A stretch of 64,000 nucleotides of DNA from IMG/VR virus record IMGVR_UViG_3300046559_000436, positions 33,261 to 97,260 of that record; one strand, written 5' to 3'. Positions within the stretch are counted from its first letter, which is position 1; each line of letters begins with the position of its first letter. Of this stretch, positions 6,986 to 63,749 are shown piece by piece. The DNA comes from a virus. Under the pieces are notes generated by a model, which was given only the letters and a program-made list of their open reading frames with translations, made no database searches and had not been told where the DNA came from. A program made the position numbers and the translations under genes.

Positions 6986-7291
6986 ATGACCCAGCCCACC
7001 GACCCTGTTCAGTCGTTCGTCAAGATCAGCATCGAACAGGTATATTCAGAGGTGCGAACAATTCACGATGCGTTGCAGCGGATCGAGTCGACACTTGCGT
7101 CGATGCGCGATCTTGAGCCACGGATTCGTGATCTGGAAAAGCTCCGCCTGCAAGAGCAGGTGCCGGACCACGAATCCCGACTTCGGGCGCTAGAGGACCG
7201 CCGCATCCCCCATTCCGTGATGACAGTCTTCGCGGGAGTTGTGGGGACAGCGGCGCTCGTCTGGCAGGGCATCCTGATGCTGATGAAGTAG
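6986..7291 (+). CDS. Holin-like membrane protein
   Basis: Coiled-coil (DHESRLRALE) plus C-terminal TM; directly after the lysin. Confidence 0.55.
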   Translation: MTQPTDPVQSFVKISIEQVYSEVRTIHDALQRIESTLASMRDLEPRIRDLEKLRLQEQVPDHESRLRALEDRRIPHSVMTVFAGVVGTAALVWQGILMLMK

Positions 7292-11054: not shown

Positions 11055-11126
11055 GTGCTGGAAGTCGTCGGCGGGACGACGCCCCCTAAACCGGGGAGAC
11101 GGTGGGTTCGAGCCCCACTCAGCATA
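11055..11126 (+). tRNA. Atypical tRNA-like element (apparent anticodon AAA)
   Basis: Acceptor gtgctgg/tcagcat, D-stem gtcg/cgac, cccc-ctaaacc-gggg, T-arm gtggg-ttcgagc-cccac. Confidence 0.5.
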
Positions 11127-11389
11127 CGAATGGTCACACCAAGTGCACTTGGCGCATTCGAACACCCCGACATACAGTGACCTCTGGTCGGATCGCGTAC
11201 TAAACCCGTCCATGCTTACCCTTACGGGTCGGCGGCGTTCAGGGAGACGGGGTACCGGGATAGAGTGAACGTACTCCCGGGAAGGTGGGCCGGACGTCTG
11301 TATGCCGCAGTTTACGGGCACACGGGTAACAGTCAGAATTGCGAGACTAGAATCCGGGAGCGGGAGGGGTACCCCGCACAACTTAACAA

Positions 11390-35925: not shown

Positions 35926-36000
35926 GGCTGAGTGGAGCAGGTCGGTTAGCTCGCTGCGCTCATAACGCAGAGGTCGTGGGTTCGAATCCCACCTCAGCCA
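35926..36000 (+). tRNA. tRNA with CAT anticodon (elongator Met or Ile2)
   Basis: ctgcg-ct cat aa-cgcag; canonical T-arm; paired G1-C72. Confidence 0.9.
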
Positions 36001-36058
36001 CGAAGGCCAGCCGGAGCCTTTGGCCTTTATTAAAGAAACACATTGAAATCCGGCACTT

Positions 36059-36131
36059 CGGATTGTGGCGCAGCTGGTAGCGCACCCGCTTTGGGAGCGG
36101 GTGGCCGTCGGTTCGAATCCGACCAATCCGA
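36059..36131 (+). tRNA. tRNA-Pro(TGG)
   Basis: C1 start, cccgc-tt tgg ga-gcggg. Confidence 0.92.
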
Positions 36132-36775
36132 CGTATCGAGAAGGCCCCCGTCGAAGATAGTGATGGGGGCCTTTTTCGTAGAGGGGAGCTTGACACACAG
36201 GAAAATCATGAGATAGAATAGTGATATCAGGCAGAGCGAGGCACCCGAAAGGCGAAGAGATGGCCACGACGGTCAAGGAACTGATAGAAGAGCTGCAGGG
36301 GCTTGCCCGAGAGCACGGCGAGGACCTGGAGATAGTGACCAGGACCTTCAGCCACGGGGCGGACGACTGGGACTACCCGGAGGGGTGCTCGGCGTACGTG
36401 GAGGATTTCAAAGCGCCCTGGTGGCATGGGACCACCGGCAAGAAGCTGGTATTCGACACTCCGTGAAGGAGAAGGAGCGGCAATGAAGACATGGGTCATC
36501 GTAAGAGAGCTGGCCAACGGAAAGCTGATCGCGGAGGGGCCGGACGGGAGGGTGTGGGGAAGCTATGATCGGACGATCCCGGCGGACGGGTCCAAGGATG
36601 AGAACTGGACCCACGAACTGGTGACGGACATCAGCGGGCTGGTGAGGGCGTCGGTGGTCCGGATGACCAAGGACGGCGGCCACGCGGAATCGCGGTTCGA
36701 ACGCAAGATCTGAGTTGAACAAGGGGGCCGCCTGGGAGGGCGGCCCCCGGCAACGCGACCAAAGGAGTGGGCATA

Positions 36776-60546: not shown

Positions 60547-61092
60547 GTGTATCCAGAGGAGGTTGGTGCTGTGGTCAAGGTAGACGACGAGTATTTCGAT
60601 GAAGACGCCGAGGGTGCGCAGCTGGCGCGAGAAAAGGCCGTCGCCAGGCTTGGCAAGATTCACTCCGCCATGCAGATGAAGATTTCGGGAGCCGACTGGC
60701 CAGAAATCGCTGCAGAACTTGGGTACGGCAGCGCGGACGCGGCGGCCAGGGACGTCCATCAGGCTCTTGAAGAGGAGATGCTCAACAACGAGCGATTCTC
60801 TACCGAAGTCATTCGCATGATTCAGCTCAAGCGTCTGGACGCCATCTATCAGGGGCTGGAGCCAGGCATTGCCCGAGGCAACGCCAGATCCGGAGATATT
60901 GCAGTCAAAGCCATCGACCGGATCTCCAAGCTGGCCGGTCTTGATGCTCCTCTCAGAACCCAGTCCCAGGTAGACATCGACATCAACGTGGTGTCTGCAG
61001 AGATCGAGCGCACAAAGCGTGAGATCGCCGTCAAGAGAGCCGAACTCGAAGCGTCCGGCATCATCGACGCCACGATTGTGGAAGAGCGATGA
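60547..61092 (+). CDS. Terminase small subunit-like HTH protein
   Basis: M...G..W.EIA..LGY....A..DV..AL, RLD, AID...KL.GLDAP. Confidence 0.65.
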   Translation: MYPEEVGAVVKVDDEYFDEDAEGAQLAREKAVARLGKIHSAMQMKISGADWPEIAAELGYGSADAAARDVHQALEEEMLNNERFSTEVIRMIQLKRLDAIYQGLEPGIARGNARSGDIAVKAIDRISKLAGLDAPLRTQSQVDIDINVVSAEIERTKREIAVKRAELEASGIIDATIVEER

Positions 61093-61620: not shown

Positions 61621-61650
61621 TTGACAAGCGTGATTGTCGCATGGTAGAAT
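61621..61650 (+). promoter_or_regulatory. Sigma70/HrdB-type promoter
   Basis: ttgaca-N18-tagaat. Confidence 0.8.
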
Positions 61651-61687
61651 TTTTCTTGTTGAAGCTGAGCAAGGAGACCTACCTAAA

Positions 61688-62425
61688 ATGAGCCACTCCC
61701 GCCTTTCGCACATCGTAGCGGTGGAGAAGTCCGTCAAGGGCAACGCCGCTGCCACTCTGACCACCGCGCACCACCAGCTCCAGCGGAACGAGCTGACCAA
61801 GGGCATCACCCGGGTCTACCGACCGCTGAACGAGAACGATCACGTTCTGCCGTCCGAGGCGACTCGGGTTCAGATCAGCGCCGAAACCGTGATCGAGGGC
61901 ATCCAGAAGGACCTCGTCCGGCTGTTCGACGTCACCGTGACCAAGGACCAGGGCAACCTGGTGGCCCACGCGGACGTCGTCATCGACGGCCAGGTGCTGG
62001 TGTCTCAGGCCACGGTTCCGACGCTGCTCTTCCTGGAGAAGCAGCTGGTCGACCTGACCACCTTCATCAAGAAGCTTCCGGTGCTGGACCCGTCCGAGCA
62101 CTGGGTGAAGGACGACAACACCGGCCACTACAAGACCCAGGTGGTCGAGAACTTCCGCACCAACAAGGTCTACCGCAACCACGTGAAGGCGGAGGCCACC
62201 GACAAGCACCCGGCCCAGGTCGAGGTCTACCAGGCCGATGAGCCGGTCGGCGTGTGGTCCACGGTGAAGTTCTCCGGCGCCCTGCAGGCCAGCCGAGTGA
62301 AGGAGCTGACCGATCGAGTGGTCAAGCTCCAGGAGGCCGTCAAGGTCGCCCGCGAGGAGGCCAACGCCACCGAGGTCGAGAACAAGACCATGGGCGAGGC
62401 CGTGCTAGGATGGCTGTTCGCCTGA
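61688..62425 (+). CDS. Uncharacterised helical-hairpin/beta protein (recalled as DUF7873-like; needs verification)
   Basis: L..IVAVEK, GI.R.Y.P, TKD..N..A.ADV.IDG, LLFLEKQL, LP.LDP...W, AT.KHPAQV, FSGAL, AVK.ARE.AN. Confidence 0.75.
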   Translation: MSHSRLSHIVAVEKSVKGNAAATLTTAHHQLQRNELTKGITRVYRPLNENDHVLPSEATRVQISAETVIEGIQKDLVRLFDVTVTKDQGNLVAHADVVIDGQVLVSQATVPTLLFLEKQLVDLTTFIKKLPVLDPSEHWVKDDNTGHYKTQVVENFRTNKVYRNHVKAEATDKHPAQVEVYQADEPVGVWSTVKFSGALQASRVKELTDRVVKLQEAVKVAREEANATEVENKTMGEAVLGWLFA

Positions 62426-62504
62426 CGGTGATCGTCGCCCTGCGGCGGGGTGATGCTCGGTACAGTCCACGCCCGAGCGTCGCCCGGCGGTTCGGCGACC
62501 GTCT

Positions 62505-62820
62505 TAGAAGCTGAGGTTAAGTTTCAGGCTAAAATCGCGGTAAAGTCCAGGTTCGAGCCCTGGCTGGCGCACTTCGAGCGCCGGTGGCCCAATTGGTAGA
62601 GGCAGCCGCTTTGAAGCTCAGATTCTCGCCACAAGCTCCTTAAAACAACCAAACACGGTTCTTCTAACACGCAGAAACTGCGGTAATGTCCGGGGTTCGA
62701 ATCCCTGCTCCGCCTCTGCCCTAACGGGCGCTGTAACACTCCTCGGCGGAGGACCAACGGTGGCTGTTGGATTGCCTCTTAGATTCAGATCTGCGAACTT
62801 GCGGCCGTGTGGAGTTATTA
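62505..62820 (+). ncRNA. Structured RNA with two tandem circularly permuted tRNA-like domains (YrlA-like topology)
   Basis: In each domain the T-arm and 3' acceptor strand precede the 5' acceptor strand and D-arm; pairings checked by hand (see findings). Confidence 0.75.
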
Positions 62821-62827
62821 CACTATC

Positions 62828-62866
62828 GAAGCCCGGGGCTATGGGTAAGCCCCGGGCTTTTTCTTT
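62828..62866 (+). terminator. Intrinsic terminator
   Basis: aagcccggggct...agccccgggctt followed by tttcttt. Confidence 0.85.
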
Positions 62867-63236
62867 GTCTAAATACTTGACTGTGAGGAACGTTTCTGAT
62901 AAGATAGACAGATGACAGAGGTAAAGCTCACCAAGCTTTCATTGGCCTCTAGGCTCAAGAAGGCTGCGACAGATCTCTATGAGTTTCTGGAGAATCCGAA
63001 ATCCGTCAGTCACCCTGACGCGTTTCTGTTGGCCACGGCTCATCTGATAGATGTCACCTCTGTTGAGCTGGAAGCGGAAATAACTTCCTTGAAGCGCACG
63101 CTCGGTGGTCAGACCGCCAAGATCGCTCATCAAGGCGACGTAATCAAGAGGCTGGAAACCGAGACCGCAGGGTTGAAGGCTACTCTCGACAAGGCTCGGA
63201 ACGATAAGAGCCCGGCAGTAGGGATGGCATCAGGTT

Positions 63237-63749
63237 ATGGTAGTGATTGAGACGCCTCAGATCGGCGACGTCGGTTTGGTCAGAGTCAAAGGACTGACCG
63301 GGTGGTTCATCGACCTCGGACAGGAGTTGAACGGCTCCAAGGAAGTAGACGCCAAGTTCGAGCACGCTCTGATGTATACGGGCGGTGGCGAGGCGCTGGA
63401 AGGTCAGCCTGGCGGTGCGGTCATCGACAGTCTCGCAGGTCGCTACGGATCTCGTGAGATTACCTGGGTCCGACCGCTGCCCGGCATCGACCAGGACCAG
63501 ATGTCGGCGCTCGTGGTTGAGGCCACCAGGTTGGTGGGGACGAAATACTCGTTCCTGGACTACGCGGCGTTGGCTATCAAGCGGTTCCACCTGCCCGTTC
63601 CAGGGGTTGAGAAGAGGGTCATCTCGACCAAACATATGATCTGTTCTCAGATTATTGTCGAAGTCTACCGAAACTCGGGCGTGGCCAACCTGTTCCCGGG
63701 GAGGTCGTCTGGGTACGTCACTCCGGCTGACTACGCGGTGTTCAGATGA
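63237..63749 (+). CDS. Permuted papain-like (YiiX/NlpC-P60) enzyme
   Basis: GD, HA..Y.G, E..P.G, G..YS, ICSQ.....Y, VTP.D. Confidence 0.8.
   Translation: MVVIETPQIGDVGLVRVKGLTGWFIDLGQELNGSKEVDAKFEHALMYTGGGEALEGQPGGAVIDSLAGRYGSREITWVRPLPGIDQDQMSALVVEATRLVGTKYSFLDYAALAIKRFHLPVPGVEKRVISTKHMICSQIIVEVYRNSGVANLFPGRSSGYVTPADYAVFR

What the first reader, a model, noticed from the sequence alone, without database searches (positions are those of the whole stretch)
61621..62866. Self-contained operon: uncharacterised protein plus two tandem circularly permuted tRNA-like RNAs (candidate new RNP system)
Seen: a promoter (61621), a 245-aa gene (61688-62425), about 400 nt with no credible ORF, then a terminator. 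Domain 1 reads gcggt (62537-41), T-arm ccagg-ttcgagc-cctgg (62547-63), 3' acceptor strand ctggcgc (62564-70), loop acttcga, 5' acceptor strand gcgccgg (62578-84), D-arm gcc-caattggtaga-ggc, then gccgc (62605-09) pairing back to gcggt. This is a cloverleaf in permuted order: the acceptor end is sealed by a loop and the anticodon loop is replaced by an outgoing stem (agtttcag/ttgaagct; gaagctga/tcagattc, imperfect). Domain 2 repeats the plan: ggtaat (62682-87)/attgcc (62771-76), T-arm cgggg-ttcgaat-ccctg, acceptor ctccgcc (62708-14)/ggcggag (62745-51), hairpin ccaacgg/ctgttgg in the D position, and outer stems gcaga/tctgc, acacggtt/ggccgtgt and agctcc/ggagtt. Both 3' strands carry tcagat. Established: this topology is that of bacterial YrlA Y RNAs, which partner Ro60/Rsr. 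No Ro60 gene is in this window and I see no Ro-binding bulged helix. Inference: the upstream protein binds these RNAs, forming a tRNA-mimic RNP that could act as a decoy for tRNA-targeting defences or as a scaffold for RNases or the ribosome.
Basis: partly seen in the sequence, partly recalled or inferred. Interest (0 to 1): 0.92.

Follow-up and report, generated by a model that had tools for sequence, protein, structure and literature searches.

The report
Double tRNA-mimic RNA with DUF7873
Right behind an unstudied phage gene (DUF7873) lies a folded RNA of about 370 bases carrying two back-to-front tRNA look-alikes; this gene-RNA pair recurs after almost every relative of the gene, in phages and in Streptomyces chromosomes, separately from the Ro60 protein that normally partners such RNAs, so it is probably an undescribed RNA-protein system.

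Summary
A near-consensus promoter (61621-61650), a 245-aa gene (Pfam DUF7873), about 400 nt without a credible ORF and a strong terminator (62828-62860) form one unit. The gap holds two circularly permuted tRNA-like modules.

A covariance model of module 1 finds such modules on the same strand behind the gene in 170 of 172 loci: 83 of 85 viral, 80 of 80 actinobacterial, 7 of 7 distant phage relatives. T, acceptor and D stems are 96-100% paired, with many compensatory changes.

The modules are YrlA-like, but this is not the known Ro60 system. The 97-kb phage and five other phage genomes have no Ro60. Of 69 Streptomycetales genomes with DUF7873, 30 show no Ro60. Where Ro60 is present it has its own tandem YrlA pair next to it, with an outer helix the window RNA lacks.

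No third conserved gene, no fused forms and no informative fold for the protein were found. Protein-RNA binding, transcript ends and function remain untested; RNA-seq contigs give only weak support for transcription.

This scan has noted the same module many times on other DNA. I found no paper describing it.

Verdict: a real, ancient gene-RNA module; a new variant of the Y-RNA/tRNA-mimic kind.

The parts
61621..61650 (+). sigma-70-type promoter: TTGACA, 18-nt spacer, extended -10 TG-TAGAAT
   Evidence: 11 of 12 matches; 2 sites found against 0.1 expected in shuffles
61659..61667 (+). GAAGCUGAG in the 5' UTR, identical to 9 nt of the RNA's conserved 5' element (62507-62515); meaning unknown
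   Evidence: the motif is not enriched in the 5' UTRs of other loci
61671..61676 (+). Shine-Dalgarno AAGGAG, 11 nt before the ATG
   Evidence: read directly
61688..62425 (+). DUF7873 gene (245 aa, P0001)
   Evidence: translation; Pfam PF25283 E 4e-94; 5055 relatives (90%-identity clusters)
62426..62506 (+). G+C-rich hairpin spacer between stop codon and conserved RNA; no terminator or promoter found in it
62507..62536 (+). 5' flank of module 1: conserved CUGA-type repeats (AAGCUGA, then two further units)
   Evidence: alignment A2: sequence-conserved from phages to Streptomyces
62537..62609 (+). tRNA-like module 1: connector stem, 5-nt variable loop, T arm, 7-bp acceptor stem closed by loop ACUUCGA, D arm with bulged A
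   Evidence: R1 76.1 bits; covariation; Rfam YrlA 20 bits
62610..62681 (+). 3' flank of module 1 and linker (UCAGAUUCUCGCC...), then 5' strands of the stems that enclose module 2 (agctcc 62634-39, acacggtt 62653-60, gcaga 62671-75)
   Evidence: partner-swap duplex test for module 2 flanks
62682..62776 (+). tRNA-like module 2: connector stem, T arm, 7-bp acceptor stem closed by a 30-nt loop with its own small hairpin, 5-7-bp hairpin in the D position; divergent copy
   Evidence: R1 19.4 bits, E 0.002; family covariation
62777..62827 (+). 3' strands of the stems enclosing module 2 (tctgc 62790-94, ggccgtgt 62803-10, ggagtt 62811-16), with UUAGAUUCAGAU motif
62828..62866 (+). intrinsic terminator: 13-bp stem, 7-nt loop, U run

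Best explanation
One transcription unit makes the DUF7873 protein and, from the same transcript, a structured non-coding RNA of about 370 nt. The RNA has two YrlA-class tRNA-like heads, each on a stem. They are joined by conserved non-tRNA flanks and a linker (CUGA/UCAG-type repeats).

Most likely the two products form a ribonucleoprotein that works like a Ro60/Y-RNA particle with a different protein. In this reading DUF7873 holds the conserved scaffold. The tRNA-like heads engage enzymes that recognise the tRNA elbow or acceptor end: RNase P, the CCA-adding enzyme, modification enzymes, or exoribonucleases such as PNPase.

Seven-base-pair acceptor stems, often followed by N-CCA, suggest that RNase P may open the closing loops, as reported for Mycobacterium smegmatis YrlA.

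Shown: the anatomy, the covariation, the near-universal gene-RNA linkage, and independence from Ro60 genes.

Inferred: co-transcription, protein-RNA binding, processing, and a role in RNA or tRNA metabolism that phages carry along, often inside their tRNA gene arrays.
For: Linkage
- R1 modules lie on the same strand behind the gene in 83 of 85 viral sources, 80 of 80 actinobacterial loci and 7 of 7 distant phage relatives at 28-37% protein identity (Vibrio, Klebsiella jumbo, Rhizobium, cyanophages).
- In 121 Streptomycetales genomes, every listed R1 hit of 64 bits or more whose coordinates I compared lies within about 1.1 kb downstream of a DUF7873 match.

Structure
- Module 1: T stem 99.5% and acceptor stem 99% paired; 19 of 23 pairs show double changes.
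- Module 2: T 99.5%, acceptor 98.3%, D 95.9% paired; 20 of 21 pairs show double changes.
- Slid controls drop to 39-54% paired.
- Flanks of module 2 pair better with their own partner than with swapped ones (-34.9 against -26.6 kcal/mol; native in the top 10% in 20 of 37 loci).

One unit
- Promoter and terminator bracket gene plus RNA, with no signal between them.

Independence from Ro60
- No TROVE in 6 of 6 phage genomes.
- 30 of 69 DUF7873-positive genomes show no TROVE; odds ratio 1.9, p 0.10.
- Ro60 genes have their own tandem YrlA pair immediately upstream in the same genomes.

A two-part cassette
- No other gene recurs in more than 11 of 92 phage loci.
- No fused forms of the protein.

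Processing lead
- N-CCA follows the 3' acceptor strand of module 1 in 35 of 90 loci.
- M. smegmatis YrlA is cut by RNase P and then receives CCA (Wang et al. preprint 10.1101/312249).

Scaffold matters
- 16 of 80 Streptomyces loci have lost head 1 but keep its flanks and module 2.
Against: - No binding, transcript-end or phenotype datum exists.
- The DUF7873 fold gives no RNA-binding clue. The best PDB match is 3kdq, a protein of unknown function (Z 9.2). PUR-alpha matches are weak.
- The protein is near neutral, pI 6-7.
- RNA-seq evidence is only long contigs that bridge gene and RNA in four studies. Such contigs cannot prove transcription or show ends.
- One viral lineage (L154/L155) has the gene without the RNA.
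- The window's own acceptor loops lack CCA, and the phage has no CCA-adding enzyme.
- Adjacency alone would also fit a cis-acting 3' UTR element.
Confidence: 0.55

Rival explanations
1. Cis-acting 3' UTR element. The structured tRNA-like region only stabilises, processes or regulates the DUF7873 mRNA, for example as an exonuclease block or an RNase P/RNase Z entry site. It has no function in trans and forms no stable particle with the protein.
For: The RNA is always downstream on the same strand and apparently co-transcribed. tRNA-like structures are known to direct 3'-end processing, as in MALAT1/mascRNA (introduction of 10.1101/312249).
Against: - Two elaborate heads plus sequence-conserved flanks and linker, kept from Streptomyces to Klebsiella jumbo phages, are far more than a stabiliser needs.
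- D- and T-loop elbow nucleotides are invariant.
- In some loci the modules lie 0.5-1.8 kb from the gene.
Confidence: 0.15
2. Ordinary Y RNA. The RNA is a YrlA that works with the host's Ro60/Rsr, and DUF7873 is a neighbour with an unrelated or accessory role.
For: - The topology and tRNA-like core are those of YrlA (Rfam RF02553; 20 bits here, 37-39 bits in relatives).
- Half of the sampled Streptomycetales genomes encode TROVE.
- Rfam scores of Ro60-adjacent Streptomyces YrlAs overlap this range at 30-43 bits.
Against: - 30 of 69 DUF7873-positive genomes and all 6 phage genomes lack TROVE.
- Ro60 genes carry their own YrlA pair next to them.
- That pair has the outer helix ACGGC...GCCGACUU matching the Rfam consensus. 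The window RNA lacks it.
- Linkage is to DUF7873, not to TROVE.
Confidence: 0.08
3. Phage counter-defence decoy. The particle soaks up or misleads host toxins or defence nucleases that act on tRNA acceptor ends, T loops or elbows.
For: In cultured phages the module sits inside tRNA gene arrays: Phendrix, Mimi, NiceHouse, Rhizobium and Vibrio phages. A phage protein-RNA complex built on tRNA fragments acts as an anti-CRISPR (AcrIIIA1, PMC11662646).
Against: - The same module is a single-copy locus among ordinary chromosomal genes in 57% of sampled Streptomycetales.
- There is no anticodon loop, so anticodon nucleases are not mimicked.
- In this window the module is about 25 kb from the nearest tRNA gene.
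Confidence: 0.1
4. Split, chargeable tRNA-like molecule. The acceptor loops are opened to give CCA-ended pieces that are aminoacylated and act on the ribosome like a two-piece tmRNA, with DUF7873 in the role of SmpB.
For: - Gene order T arm, 3' acceptor strand, N-CCA, spacer, 5' acceptor strand, D arm is that of permuted tmRNA and permuted tRNA genes.
- N-CCA occurs in 35 of 90 loci.
- Weak permuted-tmRNA match in Phendrix, 19 bits.
Against: - ARAGORN calls no tmRNA or tRNA here.
- Acceptor pair 3:70 (A3 columns 75 and 35) is GC or CG in 39 of 42 sequences and UG, not G-U, in one, so the alanine identity pair is absent.
- I identified no tag reading frame and did not search for one.
- CCA is absent in most loci, including this window.
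- Some lineages have lost head 1.
Confidence: 0.05

Closest known systems
YrlA-class bacterial and phage Y RNAs with Ro60/Rsr (Rfam RF02553; Chen et al. 2014, PMC4201824; Wang et al. 2018, 10.1101/312249)
   Same: Permuted tRNA-like module (T arm, loop-closed acceptor stem, D arm) on a stem formed by flanking sequence. Often two modules in tandem. Encoded next to the gene of a presumed protein partner. Found in both bacteria and phages.
   Different: - The partner gene is DUF7873, not Ro60/TROVE.
- The outer helix lacks the ACGGC/GCCG-CUU helix seen in the Rfam consensus and in Ro60-adjacent Streptomyces copies.
- It has family-specific CUGA/UCAG repeats and a conserved linker.
- The RNA lies downstream of the gene in one unit.
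- Chen et al. kept only candidates within 4 kb of Ro60, so this class was excluded by design.
Mycobacterium smegmatis YrlA (7-bp acceptor stem, cut by RNase P, trimmed, CCA added)
   Same: 7-bp acceptor stems, and a discriminator-like A followed by CCA in many relatives.
   Different: Processing is not tested here. The window's loops read ACUUCGA and UCUGCC..., without CCA.
[quoted passage not shown]
   Same: The idea of a tRNA-like RNA working with a partner other than Ro60. Rhodococcus phage NiceHouse has a Band-7-like gene about 640 nt behind the DUF7873 gene's stop, beyond the RNA gap and a tRNA-Lys gene.
   Different: b7a-tRNA resembles an authentic, non-permuted tRNA. This genome has no Band-7 or RtcB gene. 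The original paper was not available to me.
Two-piece (permuted) tmRNA with SmpB
   Same: Permuted order of the tRNA-like parts, and a dedicated small protein partner.
   Different: I identified no tag reading frame and no G3:U70 pair, ARAGORN does not detect it, and there are two heads.
AcrIIIA1 protein-RNA anti-CRISPR complex (PMC11662646)
   Same: A phage protein that works together with tRNA-derived RNA.
   Different: AcrIIIA1 uses fragments of host tRNAs and tmRNA, not a phage-encoded structured RNA. No relationship to DUF7873 is known.

Membership tests
YrlA / bacterial Y RNA (RF02553) | Circularly permuted tRNA-like module: T arm, loop-closed acceptor stem, D arm, no anticodon loop | tested here: met
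   Read in the sequence; Rfam alignment; covariation in both modules
YrlA / bacterial Y RNA (RF02553) | Score at or above Rfam's gathering threshold (69 bits) | tested here: not met
   20 bits in the window; 37-39 bits at best in relatives. The criterion discriminates poorly here: Ro60-adjacent Streptomyces copies also reach only 30-43 bits.
YrlA / bacterial Y RNA (RF02553) | Encoded next to (within about 4 kb of) a Ro60/TROVE gene (criterion of Chen et al. 2014) | tested here: not met
   No TROVE in the 97-kb genome or in 5 other phage genomes. In Streptomyces the TROVE gene lies 70-100 kb away or was not found.
YrlA / bacterial Y RNA (RF02553) | Outer helix of the Rfam consensus type (ACGGC ... 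GCCG-CUU), taken as the Ro60-binding stem | tested here: not met
   Outer pairs are mismatched in the window's alignment to RF02553. The motif is present in the Ro60-adjacent copies L184/L185.
YrlA / bacterial Y RNA (RF02553) | Physical binding to Ro60 | not testable with these tools
   Needs immunoprecipitation or in vitro binding
Canonical tRNA (RF00005) | Cloverleaf in standard order with an anticodon arm | tested here: not met
   ARAGORN finds nothing in 62400-62900; RF00005 scores at most 17.8 bits against a threshold of 29
Tandem-tRNA junction artefact | T arm of one annotated tRNA gene followed by the D arm of the next | tested here: not met
   No tRNA genes overlap the region. True artefacts of this kind were seen elsewhere: tandem tRNA-Asn genes in Streptomyces.
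Permuted tmRNA (RF04321) | G3:U70 alanine identity pair and detection by ARAGORN or Rfam (a tag reading frame was not searched for) | tested here: not met
   No ARAGORN tmRNA. Pair 3:70 is GC or CG in 39 of 42 sequences and never G-U. Not among the window's Rfam matches up to E 10; 19 bits in one relative, Phendrix.
Pfam DUF7873 (PF25283) | Full-length match above the curated cut-off | tested here: met
   315 bits against a cut-off of 27; residues 5-244 on profile positions 3-242
Band-7 / b7a-tRNA / RtcB RNA-repair modules | Band-7 or RtcB gene in the neighbourhood | tested here: not met
   No PF01145 or PF01139 match in the genome

The most novel reading that the evidence does not exclude
DUF7873 and its double-headed RNA form a widespread Ro60-independent counterpart of the Ro/Y-RNA particle. 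RNase P opens the RNA's acceptor loops, giving a multi-piece tRNA mimic with free (N)CCA ends. The particle uses this mimic to capture, guide or titrate enzymes that act on tRNA ends. Phages carry this cellular tRNA-surveillance device with their tRNA arrays to keep translation running during infection.
Probability: 0.15. Interest if true: 0.9.

Novelty: new variant of a known kind. Interest (0 to 1): 0.74.

Why it matters
Ro60-bound Y RNAs are the only described RNAs built as loop-closed, permuted tRNA mimics, and their effector-binding tRNA-like domain still has no agreed partner.

This is a second family with the same head but a different dedicated protein. It has thousands of members (5055 protein clusters), in bacterial chromosomes and in phages of Actinobacteria, Proteobacteria and Cyanobacteria.

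Such a family would show that tRNA mimicry on a protein-bound scaffold is a general design, not a peculiarity of Ro60. It would also give a tractable system, for example Streptomyces or cultured Gordonia and Arthrobacter phages, to ask what the tRNA-like head recruits. Finally, it would assign a first functional context to DUF7873 and to a 400-500-nt gap left unannotated in many phage genomes.

Tried and rejected
- Megablast of the locus against cultured phages: no match.
- PHROGs: no family for the protein.
- PDB by sequence profile: nothing below E 0.1.
- Foldseek against PDB and BFVD, and VIA-align wide: only 3kdq (unknown function), uncharacterised phage proteins and generic helical matches. 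Weak PUR-alpha rows (TM about 0.1) were not trusted.
- ESM Atlas: only DUF7873 itself; Gp157/DUF6847-like models at TM 0.44-0.48 by query.
- Longer or fused forms of the protein: none informative.
- Clustering of neighbouring ORFs in 92 phage loci: no recurrent partner. The next three clusters are shadow ORFs over the gene itself.
- Whole-RNA MAFFT plus RNAalifold: alignment too ragged outside the cores.
- Column-pair scan of A2 for outer helices: only one 4-bp helix (second CUGA repeat with the first UCAG), 90% paired.
- Single-sequence MFE: z -1.72, not significant.
- RNA-seq: the runs are kept as contigs only. They bridge gene and RNA but cannot show ends, strand or level.
- GAAGCUGAG motif in the 5' UTR as an autoregulatory site: not enriched in the 5' UTRs of other loci. 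Most hits are the K-L-N codons at the start of the gene.
- R1 hits away from DUF7873: explained as tandem tRNA-Asn genes or Ro60-linked YrlAs.
- Literature: no paper mentions DUF7873. Searches on YrlA plus phage, permuted tRNA, and Y RNA plus Streptomyces found no description. Burroughs and Aravind 2016 is not held.
Full report
**What is there**

The window is the right-hand 64 kb of a 97,260-bp IMG/VR virus record that is 96% complete.

At 61621-61650 there is a near-consensus promoter, TTGACA-18-TG-TAGAAT, with 11 of 12 matches. At 62828-62860 there is a 13-bp terminator hairpin followed by a U run. No promoter or terminator lies between them.

Between the two signals lie:
- a Shine-Dalgarno sequence (61671-76);
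- a 245-codon gene (61688-62425);
- about 400 nt with only short overlapping ORFs.

**The protein**

It is a full-length member of Pfam DUF7873 (E 4e-94). It matches no PHROG family.

The family is large. There are 5055 clusters at 90% identity, many from chromosomes of Streptomyces, Kitasatospora, Micromonospora, Salinispora and Kutzneria. Among cultured phages it occurs in 75 records of Gordonia, Arthrobacter, Rhodococcus, Vibrio, Rhizobium, Klebsiella/Serratia jumbo phages, Ralstonia and cyanophages.

An AlphaFold model (pLDDT 81.5) shows long helices packed on a beta sheet. Structure searches gave no function:
- The best PDB match is 3kdq, a Corynebacterium protein of unknown function (Z 9.2; Foldseek probability 0.96).
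- The remaining matches are generic helical hits and uncharacterised phage proteins.

The protein is near neutral, with pI 6-7 and a basic N-terminal helix. It has no fused forms.

**The RNA modules are real and conserved**

Rfam's only relevant match in the gap is YrlA, at 20 bits against a threshold of 69.

In Phendrix, Mimi, NiceHouse and Ziko the gene is followed by a stretch of 400-530 nt that is unannotated or carries only tiny ORFs. In the three whose gap I read, it contains two permuted tRNA-like modules.

I collected 80 actinobacterial and 80 IMG/VR loci with a protein profile. From 42 diverse module-1 sequences I built a covariance model, R1, with 79 positions and 23 pairs.

| Module | Alignment | T stem paired | Acceptor stem paired | D stem | Pairs with changes on both sides |
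|---|---|---|---|---|---|
| 1 | unfitted MAFFT | 99.5% | 99% | invariant, with a bulged A | 19 of 23 |
| 2 | 43 sequences | 99.5% | 98.3% | 95.9% paired | 20 of 21 |

For module 1, no shuffle of 500 reached the observed scores, and sliding the partners by 1-3 columns dropped pairing from 88% to 42-54%. For module 2 the covariation score was 0.71, against 0.11-0.17 when slid.

The connector stem, which stands in the place of the anticodon stem, pairs in 61-63% of cells in a fixed register. In an anchor-based count it had 6 of 6 pairs in 48 of 90 loci, against 15.6 expected with swapped partners.

The flanks of module 2 form long-range stems that covary. The native duplex energy is -34.9 kcal/mol against -26.6 for swapped partners.

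The flanks of module 1 are conserved in sequence (CUGA/UCAG-type repeats).

**Linkage of gene and RNA**

| Set of loci | Loci with an R1 module downstream on the gene's strand |
|---|---|
| Viral sources | 83 of 85 |
| Actinobacterial loci | 80 of 80 |
| Distant phage relatives, 28-37% identity | 7 of 7 |

- The only viral exception is one lineage, L154/L155, where a coding region follows the gene.
- The distant relatives are two Vibrio phages, a Klebsiella jumbo phage, two Rhizobium phages and two cyanophages. In the Microcoleus phage the module lies 1.8 kb away.
- In a sample of 121 Streptomycetales genomes, 69 have DUF7873. The strong R1 hits (64 bits or more) whose coordinates I compared all lie just downstream of it.

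R1 hits elsewhere fall into two classes:
- junctions of tandem identical tRNA-Asn genes, the artefact Chen et al. warned about;
- pairs of modules directly upstream of Ro60 (TROVE) genes.

In 16 of 80 Streptomyces loci the tRNA-like head of module 1 is replaced by a short hairpin, while its flanks, the linker and module 2 are kept. This points to the non-tRNA scaffold as an essential part.

No other gene accompanies the pair. In 92 phage loci nothing else recurs in more than 11 of them, and those neighbours are terminase, endolysin and nucleases. In Streptomyces (L012) the locus sits among ordinary chromosomal genes, not in a prophage.

**Relation to Ro60/YrlA**

The heads are YrlA-like, but three tests separate this locus from the known system.

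1. Ro60 genes are often missing.
   - No TROVE gene in this phage or in five other phage genomes.
   - In the 121 genomes the counts are: both genes 39, DUF7873 only 30, TROVE only 21, neither 31. The odds ratio is 1.9 and Fisher p is 0.10.
2. Where Ro60 exists it has its own tandem YrlA pair within a few hundred bases upstream. The cell therefore keeps two separate loci.
3. The Ro60-linked copies carry the outer helix ACGGC...GCCGACUU of the Rfam consensus. The window RNA does not.

Rfam's threshold does not discriminate here. The Ro60-linked Streptomyces copies score only 30-43 bits.

Chen et al. 2014 reported only YrlA candidates within 4 kb of Ro60 (PMC4201824). Their design therefore excluded this class.

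**A lead on processing**

In module 1, the 7-nt 3' acceptor strand is followed by N-CCA in 35 of 90 loci (ACCA in 29). The same occurs in distant relatives and in one Ro60-linked Streptomyces YrlA.

M. smegmatis YrlA has a 7-bp acceptor stem. It is cut by RNase P, trimmed, and given CCA (10.1101/312249). The same could happen here.

This is untested. The window's own loops lack CCA, and the phage has no CCA-adding enzyme.

**Expression**

For a Streptomyces anulatus locus (L020), 18 RNA-seq runs from 6 studies hold 37-44% of the sampled words.

In four runs from four studies, contigs about 95% identical bridge the gene and the whole RNA region. In three of the four, similarity to L020 breaks off at about 7128-7130, where the RNA ends.

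These contigs are 3-32 kb long. They cannot show transcript ends or exclude DNA carry-over, so this is weak support only.

**Literature and earlier notes**

No paper in the library mentions DUF7873. Searches around YrlA, permuted tRNAs and phage tRNA-like RNAs found no description of this pair.

The nearest ideas in print are:
- Ro60/YrlA;
- the predicted Band-7-associated tRNA of Burroughs and Aravind, known to me only through, because the paper is not held;
- the AcrIIIA1 protein-tRNA-fragment complex.

This scan's notebook shows the same module was reported many times on other genomes. Those notes gave me the Burroughs-Aravind lead and a warning about pairing in distant relatives, which I tested myself.

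**Verdict**

The gene-RNA module is real, ancient and mobile between cells and phages.

That it is a ribonucleoprotein analogous to Ro60/Y RNA is the best reading (about 0.55) but rests on linkage. Its function is unknown beyond a probable tie to tRNA or RNA metabolism.

Noticed in passing
L184:392-457 and 571-677 (Streptomyces, upstream of a TROVE gene starting near 749); likewise L185: Streptomyces Ro60 genes are preceded by two tandem YrlA-like modules. These score only 30-43 bits against Rfam YrlA (threshold 69), so the Rfam model under-detects actinobacterial YrlAs.
   Followed up: partly
L071:6790-6850 and 15 other Streptomyces loci (L021-L023, L029, L034, L043, L047, L055-L057, L066, L075, L079, L083, L088): In L071 the tRNA-like head of module 1 is replaced by a short hairpin, while the CUGA/UCAG flanks, the linker and module 2 are kept. 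The other 15 loci show only the module-2 hit and were not read.
   Followed up: partly
L180:1466-1618 (and L181-L183): Tandem identical tRNA-Asn(GTT) genes occur in the four Streptomyces genomes I checked and score 50-60 bits with the permuted-tRNA model. Similar 77-nt hits occur in most of the 121 sampled genomes. This is a systematic false positive for any YrlA-type search.
   Followed up: yes
window 35963-36092: A weak R1 hit (18.8 bits) spans the junction of tRNA-Met (35926-36001) and tRNA-Pro (36059-36132). It is the same tandem-tRNA artefact.
   Followed up: yes
window 11055-11127: ARAGORN calls a tRNA-Phe with the unusual anticodon AAA. Rfam's tRNA model does not reach its threshold there, so the call is doubtful.
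   Followed up: no
window 60547-61092: The ORF two genes upstream of DUF7873 matches PHROG 645, annotated 'RNase E' (E 2e-20), with no Pfam match. It is a possible RNA-processing neighbour, but it is not conserved next to DUF7873 in other phages.
   Followed up: partly
window 61659-61667 and 62507-62515: The 9-mer GAAGCUGAG occurs both in the 5' UTR just before the Shine-Dalgarno sequence and at the start of the conserved RNA. In many relatives the similar AAGCUSA lies in the first codons (K-L-N). It is not enriched in other 5' UTRs, so this may be coincidence.
   Followed up: partly
window 62877-62905 and 63237-63749: A second promoter-like site (TTGACT-17-TAAGAT) starts the next unit right after the terminator. 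The ORF at 63237-63749 matches PHROG 1128 (enoyl-CoA hydratase/carnitine racemase-like).
   Followed up: no
L009:3871-4743 (Rhodococcus phage NiceHouse): A Band-7-like membrane protein gene follows the DUF7873 RNA and a tRNA-Lys. This recalls the Band-7/tRNA-like association predicted by Burroughs and Aravind. It was not seen in this window's genome.
   Followed up: partly
Streptomyces genomes G098, G048, G088, G104, G069, G085, G077, G026, G014, G056: DUF7873 and one TROVE gene lie 69-101 kb apart on the same contig in ten genomes. This looks like conserved chromosomal synteny rather than functional adjacency.
   Followed up: no
L154:3730-4260 (and L155): This is the only viral lineage found in which DUF7873 is followed by a terminator-like hairpin and a coding region instead of the RNA. 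A weak 22.6-bit hit lies upstream on the opposite strand.
   Followed up: partly
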